From positions 64,001 through 128,000 of IMG/VR virus record IMGVR_UViG_3300000553_000005: a DNA stretch of 64,000 nucleotides; one strand, 5' to 3'. This document shows positions 32,081-46,957 of the stretch, in pieces. Position 1 is the stretch's first letter. Each line of letters starts with the position of its first letter. The translations under genes and the position numbers were made by a program. The notes under the pieces are model-generated. The model was not told where the DNA came from. It worked only from the letters and a program-made list of their open reading frames with translations, and made no database searches. Origin of the DNA: a virus.

Positions 32081-33103
32081 ATGAACAAGACAATTTCTAT
32101 CCATCCGGTGCCAGAGCTTATTTCTCAACCCGATGGATATTCGTGCGGAGCAACAGCCGCTAAGATGATGCTTAATGTATATGCTCCAGCTAATGACCTT
32201 ACGTTAGAAGAGGTCAAGCAGCTTTTCCTTACTAATCCTGCCACTGGGACAACCCATGAGGGTATGATTAACGGTTTGACTGCTTTGGAGATTCCTTACA
32301 CCCGTACCTTCCAGGCTGAAAAGCCGTTTGAACTGGTGGATGAAGCCCTTAAGCAAAACAAGCTCTTTCTCATGAGAACAGCTATTCATGGATGTAAGCA
32401 TTGGCTCCTAGTCTATGGTAAGGACAAGGAGAACTATCTTATTGCTGACCCCATGGGCCGCTATTGGGTTTGTTCCAAAGCTTTCATGGATGAGATTTGG
32501 GGCTGTCGAGAATATGATGGTTTCATCATTGAAAAGTCTTTTAACGATGAAACCGTTGAAATTCGCAAGATTGAACCCCATGAAGTTGATGAAGCTCTCC
32601 TTGATGCTGGTTTTGGTAGTTTCAAGGACAAGATTGGTGGCACTGCAAATGGGTTTTATAACTCTGTTATGTGGGCCATGGAAAGCCTTGATAATGCTTA
32701 TGTGGCTGTTTACAGGAACAGAATCATCGGTGGCTACTTCCTTGAATTCAACAAGATTGGTAGTTTCTATTTGAATGATTCAGGAGAAAACTACAAGGAT
32801 AAGGTTGGCATTCAAGGTGTCGCTCTTTTCCTTCTTCCAGAGTTTAGGGGCCAGGGAATCGGGGCGGCTCTAAGAGCTATTCCGGTTGAAATGGAGGGGG
32901 TGGATTATGTTTGGGGTATGCATCTCGCCAGTCTCAAGAATGTCAAGAATTGGGTCAAGTATGGCCGAAAGGTAATTTCCGGTAGTGAAGATGGGTTTGC
33001 TGTTACCCTGATGGACTTGAATGAACAAAGGAGAAAGAATGGCACCAAGACTGAAGAAAAATTGGAAAATAGTTTGCATAGCGGATACTCACACACAGCA
33101 TAA
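32081..33103 (+). CDS. C39-like cysteine peptidase fused to a GNAT acetyltransferase
   Basis: Q..YSCGATA, HW and IADP triad; PEFRGQGIG acetyl-CoA motif. Confidence 0.8.
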   Translation: MNKTISIHPVPELISQPDGYSCGATAAKMMLNVYAPANDLTLEEVKQLFLTNPATGTTHEGMINGLTALEIPYTRTFQAEKPFELVDEALKQNKLFLMRTAIHGCKHWLLVYGKDKENYLIADPMGRYWVCSKAFMDEIWGCREYDGFIIEKSFNDETVEIRKIEPHEVDEALLDAGFGSFKDKIGGTANGFYNSVMWAMESLDNAYVAVYRNRIIGGYFLEFNKIGSFYLNDSGENYKDKVGIQGVALFLLPEFRGQGIGAALRAIPVEMEGVDYVWGMHLASLKNVKNWVKYGRKVISGSEDGFAVTLMDLNEQRRKNGTKTEEKLENSLHSGYSHTA

Positions 33104-33713
33104 TACCATTAAGCTTCCCAAGGGAGATATGATTATCCATGCAGGGGATGCCACCTATCGTGGAAGCATTGTAGAAATTGAAAATTTTGCTAAGTGGTTT
33201 GGTAAAACCCCATATCGTCATAGGATTTTTTGCGCCGGAAACCACGATTTTCTATTCCAAGATCAACCACATTTGGCTAGAACCATCATGCAAGATAACG
33301 GAATCATCTATCTTCAAGATGAGGCTAGAATTTTTTATGATCCTAAAATTGCCAAAACTATCACTATCTATGCGACACCCCACACTCCGTTTTTTCATGC
33401 GTGGGCGTTCAACGAATACGAGGACAAGCTCAAAGATATTTATGGCATGATTCCTGAGGGTCTGGATGTCTTGGTTACTCATGGCCCTCCACTTGGTATT
33501 CTGGATGAAGTCTGTCAAGATTTTAAGCAGAAGTGGCTGGGGAGCGCAGCACTGAGAGACAGGATTCACGAAGTCAAACCCCGCTTCCATGTCTTCGGTC
33601 ATATTCATGAAGGCTACGGTCAGAAGTTTCAGGGAGAGACTCAATTTGTGAACGCTGCTACTTGCAATCGGCAGTATCGTCCTGTGAATCCCCCGATTGT
33701 AATCAAAGTTTAA
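33039..33713 (+). CDS. metallophosphoesterase (MPPED-like)
   Basis: ADTH, HAGD, AGNHD, THGPP, FGHIHEG. Confidence 0.9.
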   Translation: MAPRLKKNWKIVCIADTHTQHNTIKLPKGDMIIHAGDATYRGSIVEIENFAKWFGKTPYRHRIFCAGNHDFLFQDQPHLARTIMQDNGIIYLQDEARIFYDPKIAKTITIYATPHTPFFHAWAFNEYEDKLKDIYGMIPEGLDVLVTHGPPLGILDEVCQDFKQKWLGSAALRDRIHEVKPRFHVFGHIHEGYGQKFQGETQFVNAATCNRQYRPVNPPIVIKV

Positions 33714-35607: not shown

Positions 35608-35916
35608 TCACAAAGCATTAGAACCAGATTGGGATCCTTCTAAACCGGTTCGACTCTGATTACAAATATGATCACCAATTTGAACCACTCTACAAATTGT
35701 GGGGCGATTAGGATAAATAGAGCATCTCACTTCGGCTCCAAGAATTCCTTCAAGAGCGCAACAAATTCCATCAGTCATCTTCATAGCATAAGGAAGAATA
35801 TCTCCTTGTTGAAGCATATCTGGAGATATATGTTCGGCATCACTATTGGTAACTTCTACCCATTTAGGGTCAGGATTGGTGCAGCAAGCTCCACAGGAAG
35901 TACATGATAATGACAT
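35608..35916 (-). CDS. YkgJ/CxxCxxCC family Zn/Fe-S protein
   Basis: CTSCGACC...CCAL...CSIYPNRPTICR. Confidence 0.85.
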   Translation of the reverse strand: MSLSCTSCGACCTNPDPKWVEVTNSDAEHISPDMLQQGDILPYAMKMTDGICCALEGILGAEVRCSIYPNRPTICRVVQIGDHICNQSRTGLEGSQSGSNAL

Positions 35917-35919
35917 TTC

Positions 35920-36933
35920 TTATCCTAAAATAACGGTTTTATATGATACCCCGGCATTCATACACATTATGAGTCCCGCAGCTTCTAAATAATTTTCTAC
36001 AAAGACGACTTTCTTGTTCCCTCTGATCCCTTCAGGATAAGAGAAATTACTCTGACAAGTAGTGTTCTCCATTACGACTATGATAGGGATACCGTGATTT
36101 AGACAAGAGATATGAGGACTTCCCCAACAGTTATGGGGGGTTAGGAGGAAATCTATATCTTCATTAGATATATTCTTGGGATTTTTAATCAGATCAATCA
36201 GAGGACTTTGATGTAATCCCTTTAAAACACAAAAAAGATAAGTATTGGATATAATCTCTGGAGATTGAGAGGGTTTAACCACTACCTTGTTATAAAGATT
36301 ATCTTGAAGAAAATCCATTGGAGCATGAGCGACTGGTTTATCAATGGCTGAAGCAATATATTTACTAATTTGAGCTTCAATCGCTCCCCAAGGATTAACT
36401 GTAATATCTCCCTCCCAATAACTATTAGCAAGTTCTTCGTCACAATCAATAGTGGTGTGAATAGCCAAAGCATCAAAATCTTTATCTTTAATTTGTTCAA
36501 TAAGGGCTATTAAACCACTGGCAGATCCCCCCGCAGTTCCATCGTCATTTAGATGAGCTTTCATGATCAGGGGGGTAGTTAGTTCTAAAAGTTCAATCTC
36601 AGCCCCAAGGCCCCATATACCGGCATTAACCGCATTGATGCTACCTGGAGTAATAGGGGAATTTACTACACAGAGAATTTTGTTATGAGTTTTTACTGGT
36701 TTCAGATTGATTGAACCAGCTAAGAACCTATCAATGATGGAACCTTCGACATAAAGGCAATTGGGAGTTTGTTCGTTAATGTCCGAAGCATTACATAAAT
36801 TTGGATTCACCACTAATTTTTTACAGCATCCAGCTATAAGTTTCAATCCTGGATTAAAGGCTGCGTCACCACCTAAAGAACAGCCAAGGCCAGTGGGGAT
36901 AATCATCACACCGTTGATACTAGGTATAGGCAT
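35920..36933 (-). CDS. DUF3326-like protein
   Basis: IIPTGLGCSLGGDA, NPN..NA, LYVEG..IDRF, NPWG.IEA, PVAHAP, ENYLEAAG. Confidence 0.75.
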   Translation of the reverse strand: MPIPSINGVMIIPTGLGCSLGGDAAFNPGLKLIAGCCKKLVVNPNLCNASDINEQTPNCLYVEGSIIDRFLAGSINLKPVKTHNKILCVVNSPITPGSINAVNAGIWGLGAEIELLELTTPLIMKAHLNDDGTAGGSASGLIALIEQIKDKDFDALAIHTTIDCDEELANSYWEGDITVNPWGAIEAQISKYIASAIDKPVAHAPMDFLQDNLYNKVVVKPSQSPEIISNTYLFCVLKGLHQSPLIDLIKNPKNISNEDIDFLLTPHNCWGSPHISCLNHGIPIIVVMENTTCQSNFSYPEGIRGNKKVVFVENYLEAAGLIMCMNAGVSYKTVILG

Positions 36934-36935
36934 TG

Positions 36936-39900
36936 TTAATTTCTCACTATGTTATGTTCTGTTACTAAATTTCCACCCAAAGTTTTCAAAGCAAATGCCT
37001 TGGCTTTTTCTGGATCAAAATCCTTGCAAGAGAAGACGTTAATGAAAATTTTCTGAAGTTCATCCAAGGCATGAATAGTTATAGAAGATTCGTAAAGGAA
37101 CTGAACTACGCTGATTCCATCTTTCTTGGGATGGGTTTTGTAAGTTCCTTCAAACTTATCCTGGCCCCAACTGTAAATTGGTCCTCGCTGCATATCAATT
37201 TCATCACAGAGGTCTTCGGCAAACTTTTTCAAGATGTGGGTCTGGAATTTATCTGGGTCAACATCATGAAGATCCATAATAACCTCTTGGCCGTAATGCT
37301 CTTTCTTAGTTTCTTCAATAATTTCATCGCTATCATCGGCTACCTTTTTAATATAAGTAATGTAGCCCTGCTTGACACTGGCGGCTTTTGAATAGGGAGT
37401 GATGGCCGTAACCACTTCTACTTGCTTCTTACTACGAAGGCCCTGCATAGCCTTATCCCACAAATCTTTGTCCAGTTTGAAAGTTGTGCCTAAGTGGTAA
37501 ACTTGACCAAATTGGTCTTCTATATGTTTCTTAAAGCTTCTTAGTGGAGTCATCCCTGAGAGATTTTCTAAGATAAACTCTTGAAGTTCTTCGATGAACT
37601 GCTCTCTCGGATAGTATTTTTCCATGCCACCATAGGCTTGTTTGATTAGCAGACTCGCTTTTTTAACTGATAATTCTCTCAATTGTTGCTCCGTAATTTG
37701 CCTCGTGTCTAAAAGAACTTGAAGTGTTGCCTGATAGAATCCAGAGTCAATTCCCATAGTTTCATTTCTTATGGCTCTCTCGGCTATCTTTTCATCGTAC
37801 ATCTGGAAATGAGAATCTTCATCCATTCCTAATTTTTTCTGAATATAAGCCATGGTATCATCCATATCCTGCATATAGTAGGAAATGAAGCAGGATACAG
37901 CACAAAAAGAGCCTTTTTTATAATTAATTTCATTTCCCGCTGGTATAGCTTCATGGCAATCTTCACATTTTTGACAGAACCCACCCCTTACCAAAATTTT
38001 CTCACGTTCTGCCTCAAGATCATCATAACCATTGATGTTTAGTTGTTCCTCAATATAGGTTCTAGCTCTCCTCTTTTTATTTTCATCAGCATTCGGCAGA
38101 AACTTATCTATTAAACGATTTATCGCTGGTCGGAAATACTCCCTTACACAATAACTGCAACAATAGGGATTGCCAGATAAATAGATGGCATCTTCTTCTG
38201 CCACAGGCTCATCACAATTAGCACAATTGGTTAGCTCCTGATCTTCATGATCTTCATAGAGATCATTATCATTGTTAATATCCCAAGCACCAGGGAAGAT
38301 AATTTTTTGCTCCATCGATTCTTTAATCTTCGGATCAAATTCTGCAAGTGTTTCAAAAATCCACCAGTAATTTGAATCTACATCATATTTTTGCCCAACA
38401 TCAGCACTATCACTAAACGGATCCCTACTAAATATCTGATCTCCAATATTTCTACCATCTACATCTTGGCATTCAATAGCACCAACTCCTTGACCTTGAA
38501 TATTTTTGGTCGGGACTCGGATGAGTGCATAGCGATCAGAACCATAATGCTCATTGGTGCCACTGTCCTGAGTAATAACATAGAGAGGACCACGTTCCAG
38601 ATAGGCTTCAGCGGTCCCCTCCCCCTGTGTACACCAATGGGAACCTGTTGACATAAGCACCAAGGCTTCTGGAGTGGTACAACGATAGAAGGAGTAACCT
38701 CTGGTCTTAGCTAAAGGCTCACAACCATCTCTGAGATACTTATCCTTCTCTCTAATTAATTCTCTACCCTGCTCATTTTTGGATAGGTCGGCTCTAGTAG
38801 CCGTGTCATATATTTCTTTAAGATCTGAAAGACCTAACTTCATGATATCTTTTTCACCAGTAAAATTAGCACTACGTTTTAGCATAGCATAACGTTCAAG
38901 CATAATTTTAATATCATCTCGTTTCATTGTTCCGGCTAGCGAAGATCTACCTTCTGGATCATCCATAGCTTTTCTAGTCTCTCTACATAACCATTCTAAA
39001 TATTCTCCATTTTGAGAAGGGTCAACTAAAGATAGAGTATCTACCCCATGAGGAGGGAGATGATATTTAGAAGCAAGAGCTTTTTTCTTAGCTTCCGAAG
39101 CGGCGGCAAATTTCAATAGAGCAGATTTAAAGTTAGAAAGTGAAGATTTCTTCAGTTTTTCAGAAGGTTCAGAGGTAGGTTCCAGTTCATCTGTTGCTAT
39201 TTCACCCTCTATTTCTGGTGCTGATTCCTCTTGCACTTTGCCCATTCCACTATTTTCAATAATATCATCAATATCTGTACTCGTAGGGGTGAATTGGTCC
39301 TTAACATATTCTAGTATGTCATCGTAAAGCGTATCATAAGTCATCAGTTCATCATAAACCGGCTGAAGGACTTTCAAGGCCCATTTATAATCCCCTAGAG
39401 TTAATCCGGGGGTCACTTTTTCTACTCTGTCACTCTGCCCATTTTCAAAAGCTCTAATACCTGATGTCAGATTAGCTAAATACCAATCAAGAGCATAGTG
39501 ATGGTTAACAGTATTGGGGAGACCCATTCGGATAGCTGCTTCATGCATTGCTCTAAATACTTTGGTGGCCTTTGGATCCCAGCCTGTCCCATAAATGAGT
39601 TCCTCGGCATCATCCATAGCTTTTTGATTTCTTTCTTCTTTTCCTGGAATAGTTGCAACAAATGCCTTTACTTTTTTCTCAATTATATCATTATAAAACT
39701 CTTTAAAACATCCCTCGCAACAAAAATTATGGCTTTCTTTATCAGGGGAGTCATCATTATTCACATAAATAGTATCGTAGCTGTCTGTTTCCATATATGC
39801 ATCACATTGATCACATTTTTCAAAATGAGCCATATCATTAATATCATTAAAAATAAATCCTTCTCGGATATATCTTTCCAAATCCCTATCATAATTAGAC

Positions 39901-40646
39901 AACCATTGAACTATTCCCCACCATTCATCATTGACTTGATAACATTTATCTTCAATTTCCCAGTTTCCTATATCCTCACCATCTGCATCTTGAGCTTCAA
40001 ATCCTGTGACAGAATCATCCGGAACATGAATCTGAAGATAGCGATCTGATTCATAAGAACTTTCTTTTTCTTCTGTAGTAAAGACATAAATGGCTCCCCT
40101 ACTTAAATAACGTTGGGCATAGCCTGGGTTCTTAGTACACCAATGAGAACCTTCCCCCATCAATTGCACGGCTCTTACAGTAGTCGGCTCATAACATACG
40201 ACACCTTCACCTGGACTGCCGATCTCTTCACAGCCTTCTGCTAAATATTGTTTCCTTCTTCTCTGTAAATCTCTCTCTCGCTCTTTCTTAGAATAGTCAT
40301 CAGGAGAAGATTCTTGTATAACACTGATAAGATCGTTAAAATTGGCATAGGAAAGAATATTATTTTTGGGTTTACCATTAATCAAACCTGTAGCCCAGGC
40401 AGCACTATTTTTTAAACGTCCAAACTCCTCCAGAGCATCTTTTAATTCATCTTGAAGTGCTGGCCCCACATTTTCGTCATGTCTCAAGACTTTTACTAGC
40501 CATTCGGTATATTGACCGTTTGGAGTTGGATCTATATTCGCACAGATCTCTACGAATCCTTGGGAAACCAAATATTTTTTCTCCAGTGCCTCCTTCTTTG
40601 CCTGTGAAGCTGCGGCTAGAAGACTCAATAAAGTTGACTTGAACAT
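36936..40646 (-). CDS. 1236-aa polyprotein: two tandem PcfJ-like (HWCT) plus Zn-finger modules and a C-terminal S-adenosylmethionine decarboxylase-like domain
   Basis: Internal duplication (DP..NGxY.EWL, GSHWCT, SDRY, CxxC..CCxxC); C-terminal YGQEVIMDL..GISVVQFLYESSITIH..INVFSCKDFD. Confidence 0.8.
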   Translation of the reverse strand: MFKSTLLSLLAAASQAKKEALEKKYLVSQGFVEICANIDPTPNGQYTEWLVKVLRHDENVGPALQDELKDALEEFGRLKNSAAWATGLINGKPKNNILSYANFNDLISVIQESSPDDYSKKERERDLQRRRKQYLAEGCEEIGSPGEGVVCYEPTTVRAVQLMGEGSHWCTKNPGYAQRYLSRGAIYVFTTEEKESSYESDRYLQIHVPDDSVTGFEAQDADGEDIGNWEIEDKCYQVNDEWWGIVQWLSNYDRDLERYIREGFIFNDINDMAHFEKCDQCDAYMETDSYDTIYVNNDDSPDKESHNFCCEGCFKEFYNDIIEKKVKAFVATIPGKEERNQKAMDDAEELIYGTGWDPKATKVFRAMHEAAIRMGLPNTVNHHYALDWYLANLTSGIRAFENGQSDRVEKVTPGLTLGDYKWALKVLQPVYDELMTYDTLYDDILEYVKDQFTPTSTDIDDIIENSGMGKVQEESAPEIEGEIATDELEPTSEPSEKLKKSSLSNFKSALLKFAAASEAKKKALASKYHLPPHGVDTLSLVDPSQNGEYLEWLCRETRKAMDDPEGRSSLAGTMKRDDIKIMLERYAMLKRSANFTGEKDIMKLGLSDLKEIYDTATRADLSKNEQGRELIREKDKYLRDGCEPLAKTRGYSFYRCTTPEALVLMSTGSHWCTQGEGTAEAYLERGPLYVITQDSGTNEHYGSDRYALIRVPTKNIQGQGVGAIECQDVDGRNIGDQIFSRDPFSDSADVGQKYDVDSNYWWIFETLAEFDPKIKESMEQKIIFPGAWDINNDNDLYEDHEDQELTNCANCDEPVAEEDAIYLSGNPYCCSYCVREYFRPAINRLIDKFLPNADENKKRRARTYIEEQLNINGYDDLEAEREKILVRGGFCQKCEDCHEAIPAGNEINYKKGSFCAVSCFISYYMQDMDDTMAYIQKKLGMDEDSHFQMYDEKIAERAIRNETMGIDSGFYQATLQVLLDTRQITEQQLRELSVKKASLLIKQAYGGMEKYYPREQFIEELQEFILENLSGMTPLRSFKKHIEDQFGQVYHLGTTFKLDKDLWDKAMQGLRSKKQVEVVTAITPYSKAASVKQGYITYIKKVADDSDEIIEETKKEHYGQEVIMDLHDVDPDKFQTHILKKFAEDLCDEIDMQRGPIYSWGQDKFEGTYKTHPKKDGISVVQFLYESSITIHALDELQKIFINVFSCKDFDPEKAKAFALKTLGGNLVTEHNIVRN

Positions 40647-40749
40647 GGCTACCTCTACTCAAGGATCAGAAAATTAAAAAGTTGCCATACTTTTGTCCTT
40701 TTTAGGTATAATAGGATTGTGAGTATTAGTCATACAAGGGAGTAACTGA

Positions 40750-40983
40750 ATGTCATCTATCAATTCATTGCTGTACACCTATGGAGTCATTTCATTAGCC
40801 ACTACTTTATTTTTTTGGGGATTTACTATTTTAGGATTTCTTTCCCAGGATTTACGAGAAGAGGCTAGAAAACAAGGTTTAGGCTTGATCCCAGCCTTGT
40901 TCATGGGGATTCTTCTTGGTGTAACATGGCCCAAATCAATGTTTAATCTATTTAAATTTATCCACAATGGAGGAAAAGTATGA
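40750..40983 (+). CDS. small membrane protein
   Basis: Two hydrophobic helices; promoter upstream. Confidence 0.6.
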   Translation: MSSINSLLYTYGVISLATTLFFWGFTILGFLSQDLREEARKQGLGLIPALFMGILLGVTWPKSMFNLFKFIHNGGKV

Positions 40984-41030
40984 CCGATACTAAGAAAGTT
41001 ATTCTCATGGTGGGGCCTTCGGGCTGTGGT
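40980..41030 (+). pseudogene. orphaned original 5' end of the kinase gene (MTDTKKVILMVGPSGCG)
   Basis: GGAGG SD; P-loop start matches the 42464 gene but breaks off just before Lys-Ser. Confidence 0.75.
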
Positions 41031-41303
41031 GATCCTGCTCCCACTCAGCATCTACGTCTACGGGTTCACCTGTGTGACCCTGATGCGGTGGTTCCTGCTC
41101 CCCGTCTTCCCCGCCTTTCACATCCCCTCCTATCCGGTGGTCGTTGGCCTGGGGCTGCTGATCCGCTACGCCACCTACTCCCCCACCGACTGTGAACCGG
41201 CTGTGGAGTCGAAGATAAAGAAGGCGGTTATGGGCCTCCTCAATCCGTTCTTTATTTCCGAGCGGCCCTGCTGTTCGGCTGGATCCTTCTGAAGTTCATG
41301 TAA
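41026..41303 (+). pseudogene. GC-rich, 5'-truncated, frameshifted membrane-protein fragment
   Basis: High GC3; no SD; hydrophobic C-terminus AALLFGWILLKFM continues in another frame. Confidence 0.5.
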
Positions 41304-41312
41304 GGAGTTCCG

Positions 41313-41501
41313 ATGTCTCGTCTGATCAATGATGGCCCCGACCCTAGTGTGGTAAAGCGGGTAATCTGTAAGAACTGTGGGGCCACAATGGAGTACGTCC
41401 CCGCTGATGTGATGTCCAAGACAGTTCACGATTACGGTGGGGGCTCTGATGACTACCGCTACATCATCTGTCTGAAGTGCCTCGACCCAATTTACCTATA
41501 A
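41313..41501 (+). CDS. small Zn-ribbon protein
   Basis: CKNC...CLKC; AGGAG SD; similar type to 3685-3867. Confidence 0.7.
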   Translation: MSRLINDGPDPSVVKRVICKNCGATMEYVPADVMSKTVHDYGGGSDDYRYIICLKCLDPIYL

Positions 41502-42441
41502 TTTTCTGAAGCTGGAGTTCTAAAAACTCTTCAGCATTTTTTTCATCAAATTTCACTTCTATCACAGAATAGTTTGATCGTAACCAAATGTCCCTCGCTA
41601 TTTGGGATTCAAAATGCTTTTTTGTCTTATGGAAATAGTTTGGAAATATATAGTGCTGCACTCCATTATACTCAACAACCACCCTTAATTCCGGCAACCA
41701 ATAGTCAACCCTCACCCTCCCACTCTTACTTACGTCTTTTGGGCATACTAGAGGAAACTGAGGGATAGCTTCAATCCCCAGTTCACTAATTACCTTTCCT
41801 AGGCGTTTCTCATTCTTCCCCTTCGCACACTCTGGACAGCCCTTACCTCTAGAAAAATTTGCCCAAGAAATCCTCCACAAAAACCCGCAAGAAACACACT
41901 TTACCCTAAGCAATGAATGAGCAGTTTGATAATCGTCAACACATCTTATTTCAATCCCCATCTCCCTCATTTTGTCGGCAACACTGATTTTCGTTTTCCA
42001 TGACTTCTCCTCATTCCTTTTTCGCAACCTCTCTGCTAGTAGTAGTTGATTGCATTTTGGACATGTTTTAGCACGAAATAGGGTTTCATACCTTGCTTGA
42101 AAGATATGTCCACACCCCAGTCCTAACCAGTTATGTTTGTATTTTTGCCCAAGAAATTGTGAATCAAGAAGTTTGTATTTCGATTCGTTGCACACTCGTT
42201 TACCTTTATTATATCTAACTAGTCTCGTCGTGTGCCCATTTCTACTACAAATAGGGCAGGGATTCCCAGGGCTATCCATTACGAATCCCCAAGCCGTGGT
42301 CCAGATATGTCCGCACTCCCCCATCCAGGTCAGATTTTTGTCTCTGATGCCAGAATATACCCCATCAACCAGCTTAACATTTTTCTTGTTTTCTTCCAGC
42401 CAATCGAGTATCATTTCATTAGTCCATTTTGTTCCTTTCAC
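41464..42441 (-). mobile_element. putative homing endonuclease: Zn-ribbon repeats plus C-terminal Vsr/DUF559-like nuclease
   Basis: Three CGH..W/CP.C units; RVDYWLPELRVVVEYNGVQHY. Confidence 0.8.
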
Positions 42442-42463
42442 TCTTCACCCCCTAGGAGTAGCC

Positions 42464-42877
42464 ATGCAGATGATAATTGCCGTTGGACCATCAGGCTGTG
42501 GGAAATCTCACTTCTTTATTAATTACTTGAAGCCCCAAGGATTTATAGAGGCCAGTGCGGATCATTTCTTTGAAAAATCTGGAGCTTACCAATTTAATCC
42601 TCGTGAACTTGACAAAGCCCATGAATTTTCTCAGGAAGAAGCCCGAGAGGCCATATCTAAGGGTTTGAAAGTTTATATTTCAAACACCAACACCCGCGAA
42701 TGGGAACGCAAGCCATATGTAGATTTGGCGAATAAGGTAGGTTACGAGGTTTGGTTGAAGGTGTTTGATGTGGATGCTGAAACTTGTGCCGCTCGTAATA
42801 CCCATGGTGTTCCTCTGGAAGCCGTGAAGAAGATGAAGGAAAGGATTGACGTTCCGGCAGGTTTTTTCAAGGTGTAG
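42464..42877 (+). CDS. polynucleotide-kinase-like P-loop kinase (AAA_33)
   Basis: AVGPSGCGKS, SADHFF, SNTN, RNTHGVP; AGGAG SD before ATG 42464. Confidence 0.85.
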   Translation: MQMIIAVGPSGCGKSHFFINYLKPQGFIEASADHFFEKSGAYQFNPRELDKAHEFSQEEAREAISKGLKVYISNTNTREWERKPYVDLANKVGYEVWLKVFDVDAETCAARNTHGVPLEAVKKMKERIDVPAGFFKV

Positions 42878-42879
42878 TA

Positions 42880-43242
42880 ATGACCAGAATTTTATTTGTA
42901 GATGATGAGGAAGTGCGTTTCACCCTCCTCAAAATGAGGGATTTCTTCCCCGAAGAGGCAGAAGTCTGTTCTGTCAATAATGCCATAGATGCCATCACGG
43001 CTGTCAGAGATGAGCTTTGGGACACCATTTTTCTGGACCATGACCTCAATACTTTTGTTGATGGTCAGGAGATTACCGGATTGGATGTCGCTAAATCCAT
43101 TATTCAATTTGCCGTTGGTGCCCCCGATTGTATTATCCATAGTATGAATCAGTCGGCGGCGTGGCGAATGGAGAAAACTCTCCAAGAAGAAGGGTTTTTC
43201 ACTCAAGTCATTCCTTTCCACAAACTTCCGGAAAGGATGTAA
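42880..43242 (+). CDS. cyclic-phosphate-processing receiver domain protein
   Basis: ILFVDD..R, FLDHDL, TGLDVA, IHSMN..AA.RM; adjacent to the kinase. Confidence 0.8.
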   Translation: MTRILFVDDEEVRFTLLKMRDFFPEEAEVCSVNNAIDAITAVRDELWDTIFLDHDLNTFVDGQEITGLDVAKSIIQFAVGAPDCIIHSMNQSAAWRMEKTLQEEGFFTQVIPFHKLPERM

Positions 43243-43732
43243 CCGGGTGTAGAAATGGGTAGGATTAATAGTATTAATTATAGGAGCCGTGTCTCTTTCA
43301 GGGATGTGGCTCCTTTTAAAAGACGAAAAAGGAGTCTAAATATGCCACTTGTTCTTAGCTATACGGATACCAGGGAGACAGATAATGAGATCCTATGTGA
43401 AATAACGACAATCGGGAATACTTCTGGATTACAATTTACATTTCCCGATAGAACTCAATTTTATCCTTATCCTTTATCTACTACATATCCAAGTGGGATT
43501 TTAAGTTTTGCTGTGAATAAAATGGGGCAATTGAAAATGGATACGGTTTCTTTGGTCATTCCTCCCGAATGGTGCAACGATCATCTAACTGACGTTCTAG
43601 GCCATCTTTTTAGAGAAACTCATTGGGATTCTCATCCAACTCATGTAATCACACTTGTATGTGAACCTCCTGAATTATTTGATCTCATTAATAAATATTT
43701 TCAGGGAACTTGGCATTTATAGGAGTTTATTA

Positions 43733-44365
43733 ATGAACTACTCCCCCTTTTACTCCCTTCTTCGTCAATTAAAGGAGGGAGATAAAAAATTTGATTCTAA
43801 GCAACTTAAGAAATTGGAATATGGTGATTTAGATTTAGCTGCGATGGGGAATGCCGGATCTTGCCGCTGTCCAGTCGAAATGGTCATTGAAGAGAAAAGA
43901 AAACGAAGAGTTAAATATGTTTCATCCAAATCGTTAAACCGAGAACTTCTGAATGAATTGGGTATGTTGGACGATGTGTTAGCTGATCGTATAAAACTTA
44001 GTGAATTTCCAACATGGGACAGTCTCTCTATTGTTGCAAAACTCTGGTTTAAACTTTCCTGCCTGGAAATGCACACAGATTATCCAGGCCCCCGTATTGA
44101 AGAAGTCATTTTTCTTTTCCAGGAATGTTTAAAAGAAGTTCATCCTCCATTACCTTTTCAGATCGCCAAAAATTTTCAAACTGAATTTCAATCCATTTAT
44201 CTTCGATTAGGAAAGTTACCGGATGAAGTGATCAGAGATTGTTGTACCCAATGTGCCAATGTCATTTACGGTTTTATTGACGGTGACGAACTAGAAATTT
44301 GTGATAATATGGCATTGAAAGATTATTCTTGTAGTGGTGGGTGTTTCTTTCCGATTGGAGCTTAA
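43733..44365 (+). CDS. hypothetical protein
   Basis: AGGAG SD before MNYSPF. Confidence 0.6.
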   Translation: MNYSPFYSLLRQLKEGDKKFDSKQLKKLEYGDLDLAAMGNAGSCRCPVEMVIEEKRKRRVKYVSSKSLNRELLNELGMLDDVLADRIKLSEFPTWDSLSIVAKLWFKLSCLEMHTDYPGPRIEEVIFLFQECLKEVHPPLPFQIAKNFQTEFQSIYLRLGKLPDEVIRDCCTQCANVIYGFIDGDELEICDNMALKDYSCSGGCFFPIGA

Positions 44366-46957
44366 GTGGATTTGGCACAGTTGAAATCACATTTCCCTTT
44401 TCCTGAGATTCGACCATCTCAGGAAAAAGCTCTGGAAAAATTTGTAGTGGATGAAGAGAAGGGTAAGAAGTTTTCTATTTTTGAACTACCTACTGGTATT
44501 GGAAAGTGTTTCGCAAAAGGCACTCCCATCCTTATGTTTGATGGGGTAATCAAACCTGTAGAAGAAATTAAGGAAGGAGAGCTTGTAATGGGGCCTGACT
44601 CCACTCCTCGTAAGGTGATCAGTTTATCTCAAGGCAGAGATGAATTATTTAGGGTGACTCCAGTGAAAGGCGACTCTTTTGTAGTCAATTCCTCCCACAT
44701 TCTTTCTGTAAAAATGACCGAAAACCATAAACAAATTATTAACCTAACTTTGTCGGATTATTTGGCTAGAAGCAACAATTTTAAGCATCATGCTAAACTT
44801 TATCGAACTGGCGTAGATTTTGAGAGTGTATTAACACACGATTTAAAAGAACTTGCTTATTATATTGGATTATGGTTGGGGGATGGTTCTTCAAAAAGGT
44901 TGACTGAAGTTACTACTGCGGATAAAGAAATTCAAACCTATTTAAGCAATCTAGCTTCAAATTTTGGCCTTAGTTTGACTGCATATAACAATGGATCTAA
45001 GGCTACTTCTTGGAATATAACTACACAGGCTATGGGAGGTAGAAAAGATAGAAATATTTTATTAAACGAATTAAAGAAACTAGATATTTCTTCTAACAAG
45101 TCCATCCCTTTGTCTTTCAAAACCGCATCTAGAATTTCCAGACTTAAGTTACTCGCAGGTTATTTAGATGCTGATGGGAGTTTAGCCTCTAATACATTTG
45201 AATTTTCATCAGTTAATAAAAATTTAGCAGATGATATTTCATTTATAGCCCGTTCTCTTGGGTTCAGTGTGTATGTTAAACCTTGCCATAAAACTTGTCA
45301 AACAGGAAATGGGGGGGTTTACTATCGCGGGAATATAAGTGGGGATATCCATTTGATCCCAACTCTCCTCCCAAGAAAACAAGCAAAAATGAGACAGCAA
45401 AAAAAGAGTGTGCTTGTTACTGGTTTTAAAGTGGAACCTGTTGGACTAGGGGATTATTATGGTTTTGGTGTTGATGGGGACCACTTATTTCTTTTGGGGG
45501 ATTTTACAGTAGTTCACAATTCCGGTCTTTCTATTGCAGCTTTAGGGTGGGCTGCGGATTGTCCTGTTGAACCCCCCTTGAAACCTGGAGGAACGATCCT
45601 CACTTCTCAAAAGATTCTACAGGATCAATATGCGTCTGAATTTGGAAGTATTGGTCTAGCTGATCTTCGTGGTGCCTCTAACTACCGATGTGGGGAGCAG
45701 GAATCTAACTGTGAAATCGGCAGTGTTATGAATAAACTGGCTGGAACTATCTGTGAACATTGCCCTTACAGAAGTGCCAAGGCAGCTTTTATGGCTTCTC
45801 CCAGGGGTATTACTAATTTTGCCTATTATCTTACAGACTCAATGTTCAAGCGGCAACTACCGAAGCGTAAGCTCATAATTATTGATGAAGCGCATAATAC
45901 TGAAAATGTTTTGATCGCTTTTTCTGAAATTGGTATTTCAGCTAATCGTCTAGAAGAATTTGATATTAAACTTCCCACTAAACCACTTACTACTATTCCT
46001 GAAACTAAATATTGGGTAGAGCATACAGTTATTCAAGCCGCTGACATTTATGGAATTAAGTTAAAGGAAGAAATCGCTGCGGCTCTACAAGGACATGGAA
46101 GTTTGATGGCTTTGCTTAAGAAGGAAATGAATCTCTCCTCTTTCAAGAGTAACCTTGGTAAATTTCTAGAATCAGAGTCAGAGATGTGGTTTATTCATCA
46201 GACTGACGGTTTGGGTATCAAGCCGCTTCGTGGGGATGTTTTCTCTGAGGAACTTCTTTTTAGTCGGGCTGAAAAAATCATGTTCATGTCTGCTACCATT
46301 CTGGACCCTCGCACTTTTGTTCGCAATCTAGGAATTTCAGTCAAGGATTGTGGCTACATGAGTCTGCCTTCAGAATTTGCTCAAGATAACAGGAAAATCA
46401 TTTTCACCCCCGCTGGCTCTATGTCTTACAAAAATTATGACACCACTCTACCCAAGCTCCTCAACAAGATTGAGCGTATTTTGGAGAAGCATAAGAATGA
46501 AAAGGGAATTATTCATTGCCAATCGTTCAAGTTGATGAATCATATTCAACAGGGTTTAAGGAGAAGTCCTCATTACTCCAGATTGGTCGCACATGACTCC
46601 CAATCTCGCGCCTATGCAGTGGATAGGCACTTGACCTCAACAGAGCCTACGGTGCTTCTCAGCCCCTCTATGACCGAAGGTTTGGACCTTCGTGGGGATC
46701 TATCCAGGTTTCAGGTGGTAGCGAAAATGCCTTTCAATAACTTGGCAGACCCTTATGTAAAAAGAAGAATGGAGTTAGATAAAGCGTGGTATTCTTGGAC
46801 AACAGCCCTTACTCTCATTCAGGGTTTAGGTCGTTCCATCCGTTCTAAGGAAGACTATGCCAGGAGCTATATTATAGATCAGGATTTTAATATGTTTTTG
46901 AAAACCTGTAATGATATACTACCTGAATGGTGGCTAGAGTCAATTGAATTTCGCTAA
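44366..46957 (+). CDS. DinG/XPD-family helicase containing an intein
   Basis: R..Q, ELPTGIGK|S, Fe-S Cys cluster, DEAH, SAT, EGLD, QGLGR.IR. Confidence 0.92.
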   Translation: MDLAQLKSHFPFPEIRPSQEKALEKFVVDEEKGKKFSIFELPTGIGKCFAKGTPILMFDGVIKPVEEIKEGELVMGPDSTPRKVISLSQGRDELFRVTPVKGDSFVVNSSHILSVKMTENHKQIINLTLSDYLARSNNFKHHAKLYRTGVDFESVLTHDLKELAYYIGLWLGDGSSKRLTEVTTADKEIQTYLSNLASNFGLSLTAYNNGSKATSWNITTQAMGGRKDRNILLNELKKLDISSNKSIPLSFKTASRISRLKLLAGYLDADGSLASNTFEFSSVNKNLADDISFIARSLGFSVYVKPCHKTCQTGNGGVYYRGNISGDIHLIPTLLPRKQAKMRQQKKSVLVTGFKVEPVGLGDYYGFGVDGDHLFLLGDFTVVHNSGLSIAALGWAADCPVEPPLKPGGTILTSQKILQDQYASEFGSIGLADLRGASNYRCGEQESNCEIGSVMNKLAGTICEHCPYRSAKAAFMASPRGITNFAYYLTDSMFKRQLPKRKLIIIDEAHNTENVLIAFSEIGISANRLEEFDIKLPTKPLTTIPETKYWVEHTVIQAADIYGIKLKEEIAAALQGHGSLMALLKKEMNLSSFKSNLGKFLESESEMWFIHQTDGLGIKPLRGDVFSEELLFSRAEKIMFMSATILDPRTFVRNLGISVKDCGYMSLPSEFAQDNRKIIFTPAGSMSYKNYDTTLPKLLNKIERILEKHKNEKGIIHCQSFKLMNHIQQGLRRSPHYSRLVAHDSQSRAYAVDRHLTSTEPTVLLSPSMTEGLDLRGDLSRFQVVAKMPFNNLADPYVKRRMELDKAWYSWTTALTLIQGLGRSIRSKEDYARSYIIDQDFNMFLKTCNDILPEWWLESIEFR
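44507..45520 (+). mobile_element. 338-aa intein with LAGLIDADG homing endonuclease, inserted in Walker A
   Basis: N-terminal CFAKGT, C-terminal VVHN followed by Ser; GLWLGDG and LAGYLDADG blocks. Confidence 0.95.

What the first reader, a model, noticed from the sequence alone, without database searches (positions are those of the whole stretch)
40980..42502. Endonuclease cassette split the kinase gene at its P-loop and supplied a recoded replacement start
Seen: 40980-41030 encodes MTDTKKVILMVGPSGCG (gtg ggg cct tcg ggc tgt ggt) and breaks off before Lys-Ser. About 1.4 kb later a new SD+ATG encodes MQMIIAVGPSGCG (gtt gga cca tca ggc tgt ggg), which continues in frame into KSHFF.... Five of the seven motif codons differ synonymously. 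Between the two lie a GC-rich foreign fragment and a divergent endonuclease whose start is only 22 nt from the new kinase start, with back-to-back SD sites (CCCCTAGGAG). Inference: intron-less homing in which the element repairs its target with a cleavage-resistant 5' end and leaves the old one as a fossil.
Basis: partly seen in the sequence, partly recalled or inferred. Interest (0 to 1): 0.7.

Follow-up and report, generated by a model that had tools for sequence, protein, structure and literature searches.

The report
Homing endonuclease import left kinase fossil
A selfish nuclease gene, copied almost letter for letter from a distantly related phage together with its neighbouring DNA, overwrote the front of this phage's kinase gene and left the old 17-codon start stranded upstream; this is a clear natural example of a repair accident previously known mainly from phage T4 experiments.

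Summary
Position 40980 starts a 17-codon kinase beginning that ends inside its P-loop. A full 137-aa AAA_33 kinase starts at 42464. A 325-aa nuclease gene on the minus strand starts 22 nt from it.

I found a donor-type sequence, metagenome contig L023 (GC 0.50; window 0.40). Window 41022-42690 differs from it at only 4 of 1669 positions. Identity falls to about 70% after 42690. Other genes shared by the two phage lineages are only 50-58% identical as protein.

The imported tract holds four things:
- the 3' two-thirds of a donor membrane gene, now also frameshifted;
- an intact 62-aa zinc-ribbon gene;
- the nuclease gene;
- kinase codons 1-76.

The left junction is a 9-nt microhomology (GGCTGTGGT) between the old P-loop codons and the donor membrane gene. 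The right junction is homologous, at the NTNTR codons.

The nuclease has three zinc-finger repeats plus a Vsr-like catalytic domain. Its closest solved structure is the homing endonuclease I-Bth0305I (Z 10.4).

My best reading is one-sided intronless homing, finished on the left by illegitimate repair. Cleavage, its site and resistance of the new allele remain untested. This is a new member of a known kind, of moderate interest.

The parts
40750..40983 (+). Native 77-aa two-TM ORF upstream of the kinase locus. Its stop overlaps the fossil's ATG (ATGA).
   Evidence: GC 0.36. The exact protein is on record on 7 contigs.
40980..41021 (+). Fossil of the recipient's own kinase 5' end (SD, ATG, codons 1-14). 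It belongs to the M-x-K-[KR]-V-I-I-L-V-G-P-S-G-C-G-K-S-T allele class of HEG-less relatives.
   Evidence: The chimeric 71-aa ORF that starts here (40980-41195) is on record with this exact sequence on 5 contigs from JGI, Logan and ENA.
41022..41030 (.). Left recombination junction: 9-nt exact microhomology GGCTGTGGT. It is shared by the old P-loop codons (G-C-G) and by codons about 39-41 of the donor's membrane gene. With the flanks, 13 of 15 positions match.
   Evidence: Global alignment of the window against L023.
41031..41303 (+). 3' two-thirds of the donor's 132-aa membrane-protein gene. It lacks its first ~40 codons and start, and carries a 1-nt deletion at 41259/41260 that shifts the frame. 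A pseudogene.
   Evidence: Intact copy at L023 5067-5465. Residues 38-119 and 118-132 map in two different frames. The deletion is seen. GC 0.59.
41313..41501 (+). Intact 62-aa CxxC...CxxC zinc-ribbon gene, imported with the cassette. In HEG-less relatives it lies directly upstream of the kinase.
   Evidence: phrog_2834 at 5e-9. 81% nucleotide identity to L008 5735-5957. One amino-acid difference from L023. The exact protein is on 33 contigs.
41464..42441 (-). Free-standing homing endonuclease gene (325 aa): three DUF4379/CapR-type treble-clef zinc-finger repeats plus a C-terminal Vsr-like (EDxHD-type) nuclease domain. Its last 12 codons overlap the zinc-ribbon gene's 3' end.
   Evidence: Pfam DUF4379 at 1.2e-9. 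phrog_559 at 7e-39. AF2 model with pLDDT 83.7. 3r3p I-Bth0305I: Foldseek prob 1.0, TMt 0.70; Z 10.4, rmsd 2.7, 92 of 97 residues aligned. Conserved E211, D246, E257, H263, D284. Single copy in the genome.
42442..42463 (.). 22-nt divergent intergenic spacer carrying both ribosome-binding sites (AGGAG for the kinase; a G-run for the nuclease on the other strand).
   Evidence: Identical in L023.
42464..42690 (+). Donor-derived kinase codons 1-76 (MQMII... allele, including Walker A). This is the right-hand co-conversion tract.
   Evidence: Identical to L023 6626-6852. GC 0.40, GC3 0.36. Protein residues 1-80 are identical to P0002.
42691..42877 (+). Recipient's own kinase 3' part, from the NTNTR motif to the stop. 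Homologous crossover lies just upstream, in 42683-42690.
   Evidence: 52 differences in 172 nt against L023 from 42691 onward (Fisher p 3e-52). The C-terminus resembles P0004.

Best explanation
This large phage (GC 0.40) originally carried a kinase gene directly after the 77-aa ORF, beginning MTDTKKVILMVGPSGCG-KS... During a mixed infection with a distantly related, GC-richer phage of the L023 type, that gene suffered a double-strand break. The donor's order is membrane gene, zinc-ribbon gene, endonuclease gene on the opposite strand, then the MQMII-type kinase. The break was most probably made by the donor's free-standing Vsr-like homing endonuclease.

The right-hand end found homology only from the conserved NTNTR codons onward and primed copying of the donor leftwards. 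This copied kinase codons 76-1, the endonuclease gene, the zinc-ribbon gene and part of the membrane gene. The recipient had no counterpart of the donor's upstream genes. The left end was therefore sealed illegitimately, at a 9-nt microhomology between its P-loop codons and the membrane gene.

The result is a working chimeric kinase (donor codons 1-76, native codons 77-137) and a newly acquired endonuclease and zinc-ribbon gene. A dead membrane-gene fragment and the old 14-17-codon kinase start were left behind as a fossil.

Shown here: donor-type and HEG-less arrangements, both junctions to the nucleotide, direction of transfer, nuclease fold and conserved residues, and presence of the junction in independent assemblies.

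Inferred: that the endonuclease itself made the break, that the break lay between codons ~14 and 76 of the old allele, and that the new allele is resistant.
For: 1. Donor found. Window 41022-42690 against L023 5183-6852 shows 4 differences in 1669 nt: one 1-nt deletion, two substitutions in the nuclease tail and one synonymous change. There are then 52 differences in the next 172 nt.

2. The two phage lineages are only distant relatives. Other shared genes are 50-58% identical by tblastx, with almost no nucleotide-level similarity. The tract's membrane and zinc-ribbon part has donor-like GC (0.51-0.59) in a 0.40 genome.

3. Direction. L023 holds the membrane gene intact and is syntenic with HEG-less L008 (84% over 5 kb). 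The window holds the gene truncated, fused to the kinase fossil and frameshifted.

4. HEG-less alleles exist. L008 and L009 have the zinc-ribbon gene followed by an M-E-K-R-V... kinase. L007 has a small membrane ORF followed by the kinase. Their N-termini match the fossil's class.

5. Mosaic kinases. P0001 (window) and P0002 (L023 type) are identical over residues 1-80 and then diverge. P0002's C-terminus equals P0006's, and the window's resembles P0004's. In L023, homology to L008 also resumes at the same NTNTR region.

6. The ORF is a credible homing endonuclease.
- Fold: nearest to the I-Bth0305I catalytic domain.
- Residues: conserved acidic and His residues, with the same 17-residue D-to-H spacing as D196/H213 of I-Bth0305I (PMC3239194).
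- DNA-binding part: zinc-finger repeats of a type known from phage HEGs (PMC10448857).
- Relatives: free-standing in phages, for example between TerS and TerL.
- Copies: on 8 gene records the protein is identical except in the tail that overlaps flanking DNA.

7. The left junction is real. The chimeric 71-aa ORF occurs on 5 contigs from three data sources.

8. One-sided homing resolved at microhomologies is an experimentally known outcome in T4 (review PMC2988022 citing Parker et al. 1999).
Against: No cleavage assay exists, so the nuclease's target, and even its activity, are unknown.

No uninterrupted sibling of this particular phage was recovered. The ancestral allele beyond codon 17 is therefore inferred from relatives that are 55-59% identical.

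The endonuclease could be a passenger in an ordinary illegitimate recombination event.

HEG plus kinase 5' have GC 0.40, the same as the window genome, so composition alone does not mark that part as foreign here. Its foreignness rests on the fossil and on the continuous 99.8% tract.

Confidence: 0.75

Rival explanations
1. Endonuclease-independent illegitimate recombination. Two co-infecting phages recombined by chance, with one homologous crossover in the kinase 3' part and one microhomology join. The endonuclease gene was only a passenger in the transferred 1.67 kb.
For: Both junction types can arise from any break or template switch. No nuclease activity has been shown. Phage genomes are mosaics in general.
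Against: The transferred tract is centred on the nuclease gene, with 442 nt to its left and 249 nt to its right. The same HEG plus kinase-5' module sits in at least two different kinase backgrounds with its right boundary in the same NTNTR region. The HEG protein is identical (outside its overlapping C-terminal tail) across records from several assemblies, while everything else between the lineages is far diverged.
Confidence: 0.17
2. Assembly chimera. The contig joins reads from two phages that were present in one metagenome.
For: The window comes from a metagenome-derived viral record. Donor-type sequence exists in public metagenomes.
Against: The left junction shares only 9 nt, which is far below assembler k-mer sizes. 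The exact chimeric 71-aa ORF spanning that junction is on 5 contigs from JGI, Logan and ENA. The mosaic kinase is on 4 contigs.
Confidence: 0.03
3. Split gene rejoined at the RNA or protein level. A group I/II intron or split intein would join 41030 to 42503, so that the fossil is the real first exon.
For: The fossil stops in frame exactly before Lys-Ser, and the downstream copy continues with Lys-Ser.
Against: No intron family matches at E<=1 in 40500-43300. The intervening DNA consists of the donor's ordinary genes, which stand intact and unsplit in L023. The downstream kinase has its own SD and ATG. Its full N-terminus is the natural start of homologues P0002 and P0003. No Hint or intein residues flank the break.
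Confidence: 0.01
4. Remnant of a second, tandem kinase paralogue that was deleted, unrelated to the cassette.
For: There are two P-loop starts on the same strand, 1.5 kb apart.
Against: All relatives examined carry one kinase at this locus. The fossil ends exactly where the 99.8% donor tract begins.
Confidence: 0.02

Closest known systems
Intronless homing by free-standing phage endonucleases (T4 SegF, SegG, SegB, mobE; Hef of phage U5)
   Same: A free-standing nuclease gene lies next to a conserved gene. HEG-plus and HEG-minus alleles exist in related phages. Flanking donor sequence is co-converted on both sides, so the neighbouring gene becomes a mosaic (review PMC2988022; PMC2790892).
   Different: Here one side had no homology and was closed at a microhomology, leaving a duplicated gene start. 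The nuclease is Vsr-like with zinc-finger repeats, not GIY-YIG or HNH. Activity has not been assayed.
One-sided homing with illegitimate double-strand-break repair (td intron in T4; Parker, Belisle and Belfort 1999, as summarised in PMC2988022)
   Same: There is extensive homology on one side only, and the recombination junction on the other side lies at a microhomology. That mechanism was proposed as the route by which homing elements reach ectopic sites.
   Different: That was an engineered plasmid/phage system with an intron-encoded nuclease. This is a natural event between two uncultured phages with a free-standing gene. I could not read the original paper (not held).
I-Bth0305I and the EDxHD (Vsr-like) homing endonuclease family
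   Same: The catalytic domain fold matches (Z 10.4, 92 of 97 residues aligned). Conserved E, D, H, D residues are present, with the same D-to-H spacing. The family includes free-standing phage members.
   Different: I-Bth0305I is intron-encoded in recA and binds DNA through NUMOD/HTH modules. This protein uses three DUF4379/CapR-type zinc-finger repeats. Sequence similarity is marginal (profile E 0.089).
HEG-bounded exchange tracts ('HEG islands') in phages (Barth, Dunham and Seed 2023, PMC10448857)
   Same: High-identity DNA tracts between otherwise diverged phages are associated with nuclease genes next to conserved genes. The nucleases carry modular zinc-finger DNA-binding repeats.
   Different: Those tracts exceed 10 kb and involve T5orf172/HNH genes. 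Here a 1.67-kb tract has both junctions resolved to the base.
Mitochondrial mobile ORFs that bring a replacement gene end and displace the resident one (e.g. Allomyces atp6 hybrid gene)
   Same: An endonuclease ORF travels with a foreign copy of the adjoining gene terminus. The resident terminus survives as a non-functional remnant.
   Different: That case concerns the 3' end, in an organelle.

Membership tests
EDxHD / Vsr-like homing endonucleases | Catalytic domain with the Vsr-type nuclease fold | tested here: met
   AF2 model, pLDDT 83.7 overall and >90 over most of residues 210-320. Top matches: 3r3p with Foldseek prob 1.0 and TMt 0.70, and Z 10.4, rmsd 2.7, 92 of 97 residues. Vsr itself gives Z 8.0.
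EDxHD / Vsr-like homing endonucleases | Composite catalytic motif E...D...x...H...D conserved | tested here: met
   In the 30-sequence alignment A1, D246, E257 and D284 are invariant and E211 and H263 are >=90% conserved. E211 falls at the position of E170 by the alignment ranges. The D246-H263 spacing is 17, as for D196-H213. Residue-by-residue superposition was not inspected.
EDxHD / Vsr-like homing endonucleases | Site-specific double-strand cleavage of the HEG-less allele | not testable with these tools
   Needs protein expression and a cleavage assay.
Intronless homing (free-standing HEG) | The nuclease gene is not inside an intron or intein | tested here: met
   No Rfam intron in 40500-43300. 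The gene has its own start, lies on the opposite strand and sits between two complete genes in L023.
Intronless homing (free-standing HEG) | HEG-plus and HEG-minus versions of the same locus in related genomes | tested here: met
   L023 (plus) against L008/L009 (minus) are syntenic at 84% identity. The only non-homologous stretch is L023 5663-6844, which is the HEG plus the kinase 5' end.
Intronless homing (free-standing HEG) | Co-conversion of donor flanks around the HEG in the recipient | tested here: met
   442 nt to the left and 249 nt to the right of the HEG are near-identical to the donor. Identity drops sharply at 42691.
Intronless homing (free-standing HEG) | Preferential inheritance in mixed infection, and an own allele that is resistant to cleavage | not testable with these tools
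   The phages are uncultured. The P-loop codons do differ at 5 third positions between the old and new alleles, but resistance is untested.
One-sided (illegitimate) double-strand-break repair | Homology available on one side only | tested here: met
   On the right, the kinase 3' part is 70-72% identical to donor-type alleles. On the left, the membrane and zinc-ribbon genes occur only once in the 139.8-kb record, as the imported copies. The record is estimated to be 49% complete.
One-sided (illegitimate) double-strand-break repair | Junction at a short microhomology, with duplication of target sequence | tested here: met
   There is a 9-nt exact overlap at 41022-41030. Two P-loop copies flank the insert.
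Group I/II intron or intein-mediated split gene | Ribozyme or Hint domain able to rejoin the two kinase parts | tested here: not met
   There is no RNA family match. The intervening ORFs are a membrane-gene fragment, a zinc-ribbon gene and an antisense nuclease gene.
HNH endonucleases (label of phrog_559) | HNH/beta-beta-alpha-metal catalytic motif | tested here: inconclusive
   No HNH Pfam family was reported at E<=0.1. The catalytic domain instead folds like Vsr/I-Bth0305I. The PHROG label appears to be a naming convention rather than a fold assignment.

The most novel reading that the evidence does not exclude
The endonuclease may specifically target the P-loop coding stretch of this kinase family and always travel welded to a divergent, uncuttable 76-codon kinase front end. 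That would make it a natural 'cut-and-rescue' cassette, which overwrites the target gene's 5' third in any related phage it meets, even phages that lack the left-hand homology. If so, the module boundary at NTNTR and the near-identical cassette in several kinase backgrounds would reflect an evolved unit rather than incidental co-conversion.
Probability: 0.3. Interest if true: 0.6.

Novelty: new member of a known kind. Interest (0 to 1): 0.42.

Why it matters
This is a rare natural snapshot in which the donor, the HEG-less relatives and the recipient of one homing event can all be laid side by side with both junctions resolved to the base.

It shows that a free-standing endonuclease gene can jump between phages that share only 50-58% protein identity. 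It also shows that the gene can enter a genome lacking homology on one side, by microhomology-mediated repair. That is the route proposed from T4 experiments for how homing elements colonise new sites.

The case explains three things at once:
- how mosaic genes arise (a chimeric kinase);
- how small cargo genes are gained (the zinc-ribbon gene);
- how pseudogene debris accumulates in large phages.

It also gives a bounded, testable prediction for the target of an uncharacterised branch of Vsr-like homing endonucleases: codons ~14-76 of HEG-less kinase alleles.

Tried and rejected
Searches that gave nothing useful:
- Nucleotide search of the phage collection with 40000-44000 found nothing.
- Protein search there found only kinases of 39% identity or less.
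- IMG/VR scans with the window kinase, the cREC_REC gene and a degenerate MQMII pattern found no close relative. The donor appeared only in the single metagenome scan.
- The word-based protein search with the nuclease found only its own cluster. The exhaustive HMMER search was needed to find relatives.
- A sequence search of the PDB with the nuclease gave only spurious RING-finger hits.

Tools and papers not available:
The contexts of P0002, P0003, P0004, P0180 (55.5-kb contig) and P0185 could not be seen.
- Parker et al. 1999 is not held.

Ideas dropped:
- I first took the GC-rich ORF for a homologue of L008's 96-aa membrane protein. That was wrong. It is the 132-aa gene present in L023 and absent from L008.
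- The 77-aa upstream ORF is not detectably homologous to the small membrane ORF upstream of the kinase in L007, so upstream synteny could not be used.
- The promoter/terminator scan gave nothing above chance.
- No palindromic target candidate could be singled out from the three HEG-less alleles.
Full report
**Setting**

The window is bases 64001-128000 of a 139,816-bp IMG/VR virus record that CheckV rates 49% complete. It is therefore probably a very large phage. Window GC is 0.40.

**Observation**

- ATG 40980, with GGAGGA upstream, overlaps the stop of a 77-aa ORF. It encodes MTDTKKVILMVGPSGCG, after which the frame runs into GC-rich sequence.
- ATG 42464 encodes a complete 137-aa kinase (Pfam AAA_33 5.9e-18; phrog_2071 and phrog_505 'polynucleotide kinase').
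- A cREC_REC receiver-domain gene follows the kinase.
- Between the two kinase starts lie a block of GC 0.52-0.62 and a 325-aa ORF on the minus strand. That ORF's GTG start is 22 nt from the kinase ATG.
- The degenerate V-G-P-S-G-C-G coding motif occurs only at these two places in 64 kb, with none expected by chance.

**What the fossil is**

A protein search with the kinase returned two N-terminal allele classes.
- P0002 and P0003 begin MQMII..., like the live gene.
- P0004 to P0010 begin M-x-K-[KR]-V-I-I-L-V-G-P-S-G-C-G-K-S-T, which is the fossil's pattern.

The family is also mosaic.
- The window kinase and P0002 are identical for residues 1-80 and then diverge.
- P0002's C-terminus equals P0006's.
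- The window's C-terminus resembles P0004's.

**Relatives without the nuclease**

IMG/VR loci L007, L008 and L009 (GC 0.49-0.51) carry the second allele class and no nuclease gene. In L008 and L009 a 62-aa zinc-ribbon gene sits directly upstream of the kinase. It is 81% identical in DNA to window 41278-41500. The 'foreign' GC-rich block is therefore the normal upstream neighbourhood of the kinase in a GC-richer lineage.

**The donor type**

A degenerate pattern for the MQMII start found one JGI metagenome contig, L023 (7,024 bp, GC 0.50). Its gene order is:
- phosphoesterase;
- a 72-aa gene and a 96-aa gene;
- an intact 132-aa membrane gene;
- the 62-aa zinc-ribbon gene;
- the 325-aa nuclease gene on the opposite strand;
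- the MQMII kinase (P0002 type).

A global alignment shows that window 41022-42690 differs from L023 5183-6852 at 4 of 1669 positions. The four differences are:
- a 1-nt deletion at 41259/41260, which frameshifts the membrane gene;
- two substitutions in the 38-nt overlap of the zinc-ribbon and nuclease genes;
- one synonymous change in the nuclease gene.

From 42691 onward there are 52 differences in 172 nt (Fisher p 3e-52).

To the left, identity ends within GGCTGTGGT (41022-41030). This 9-mer is both the G-C-G codons of the old P-loop and part of the donor membrane gene. With the flanks, 13 of 15 positions match.

The membrane gene in the window therefore lacks about 40 codons and its start. 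It maps in two frames.

**Direction and reality of the event**

L023 is syntenic with HEG-less L008 at 84% identity over 5 kb. The two lose homology only over L023 5663-6844 (nuclease gene plus kinase 5' part) and regain it at the NTNTR codons. L023 has the intact upstream genes and the window has a truncated copy fused to a kinase stub, so the transfer ran from an L023-like phage into this one.

Other genes shared by the two lineages are only 50-58% identical by tblastx. The 99.8% tract is therefore a recent import.

The GC-rich block is single-copy in the record.

The 71-aa chimeric ORF that spans the left junction is on record, letter for letter, on 5 contigs from JGI, Logan and ENA. The mosaic kinase is on 4 contigs. 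Together with a junction overlap of only 9 nt, this rules out an assembly chimera.

The nuclease gene and kinase codons 1-76 have GC 0.40-0.41 even inside L023. The cassette was therefore foreign to the L023 lineage too, and has moved at least twice.

**The nuclease**

- Pfam finds DUF4379 treble-clef zinc fingers and a CapR-like domain.
- PHROGs place the protein in phrog_559, phrog_681 and phrog_9084, all labelled endonucleases.
- The exhaustive search finds 10,730 relatives at E<=1e-3.
- An alignment of 30 relatives shows three ~65-residue zinc-finger repeats, followed by a domain with invariant D246, E257 and D284 and nearly invariant E211, G260 and H263.
- The AlphaFold model (pLDDT 83.7) matches the I-Bth0305I catalytic domain best: Foldseek prob 1.0 and TMt 0.70; Z 10.4, rmsd 2.7, 92 of 97 residues. 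Vsr itself scores Z 8.0.
- I-Bth0305I is the prototype of the EDxHD homing endonuclease family, which includes free-standing phage genes such as Hef (PMC3239194).
- Repeated zinc-finger modules of this kind are the DNA-binding parts of many phage HEGs (PMC10448857).
- Distant relatives in cultured phages are free-standing genes next to conserved genes, for example between TerS and TerL. The nearest IMG/VR relative is also free-standing.
- The eight gene records in the >=90% cluster are identical except in the C-terminal tail encoded by flanking DNA. One record is N-terminally cut, and some were called from a later ATG. That pattern fits a recently spreading element.

**Mechanism**

The anatomy fits one-sided homing. 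A break arose in the recipient's kinase between the two junctions. The right end invaded the donor at the first available homology (NTNTR onward), and synthesis then ran leftward through the cassette. Because the recipient lacked the donor's upstream genes, the left end was closed at a microhomology.

This outcome, with junctions at microhomologies when one exon lacks homology, was seen experimentally in T4 and was proposed as the way homing elements reach ectopic sites (PMC2988022).

That the nuclease made the break is inferred from three things: its central position in the tract, its recurrence with the same kinase module in different kinase backgrounds, and its family. It has not been shown.

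The P-loop is where repair ended, not necessarily where the cut was made.

**Alternatives**

- Splicing is rejected: no intron model matches, the intervening DNA consists of ordinary donor genes, and the downstream gene has a natural start.
- A deleted tandem paralogue is rejected, because all relatives have a single kinase.
- A passenger role for the nuclease remains possible, at about 0.17.

**Verdict**

This is a clean natural instance of known processes (intronless homing plus illegitimate one-sided repair) involving an unassayed Vsr-like nuclease. It is a new member of a known kind, of moderate interest.

Noticed in passing
window 44366-46957 (+): An 863-aa DinG/XPD-type helicase (DEAD_2, Helicase_C_2) is interrupted by an intein carrying a LAGLIDADG homing endonuclease (Hom_end_hint 2.6e-20, LAGLIDADG_3 6.9e-10). 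The intein appears to sit inside the helicase's Walker A motif (…GIGK | C…HN | S…). This is a second homing element at a P-loop, 1.9 kb from the first.
   Followed up: partly
window 42880-43242 (+); L007/L008/L023 upstream genes; window 33021-33713: In the window the kinase is followed, 2 nt after its stop, by a cREC_REC (cyclic-phosphate-processing receiver) gene (9.3e-13). In relatives a calcineurin-like phosphoesterase lies just upstream of the kinase. Together these hint at an RNA end-healing module. In this phage the phosphoesterase orthologue lies about 7 kb upstream, separated by the minus-strand block 35608-40646.
   Followed up: partly
L023 5032-5474 versus L008 5724-5770: L023 has an extra 132-aa membrane gene with very high GC3 (0.78) that L008 and L009 lack. 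This is a further indel in the same hot spot, between the 96-aa gene and the zinc-ribbon gene.
   Followed up: no
window 41464-41501: The nuclease gene's last 12 codons overlap the 3' end of the zinc-ribbon gene on the opposite strand. The only amino-acid differences among the nuclease copies (GRGTSDR, VQGTSDR, VQGILDR) fall in this overlap, as if the reading frame simply runs on into whatever flank it lands next to.
   Followed up: partly
window 41313-41501: The exact 62-aa zinc-ribbon protein is on record on 33 contigs, far more than the fossil ORF (5 contigs). One source names a cluster member 'RNase P subunit RPR2'. Its function is unknown.
   Followed up: no
window 41022-41029 and 42494-42501: The two P-loop copies share an exact GGCTGTGG. 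A deletion between them would yield an in-frame hybrid kinase without the cassette, which is a possible natural route to loss of the element.
   Followed up: no
phrog_559 / phage records: Members of this nuclease family are widely annotated as 'HNH endonuclease' or 'intron-encoded protein'. The catalytic domain modelled here is Vsr-like, so the label looks like a misnomer.
   Followed up: partly
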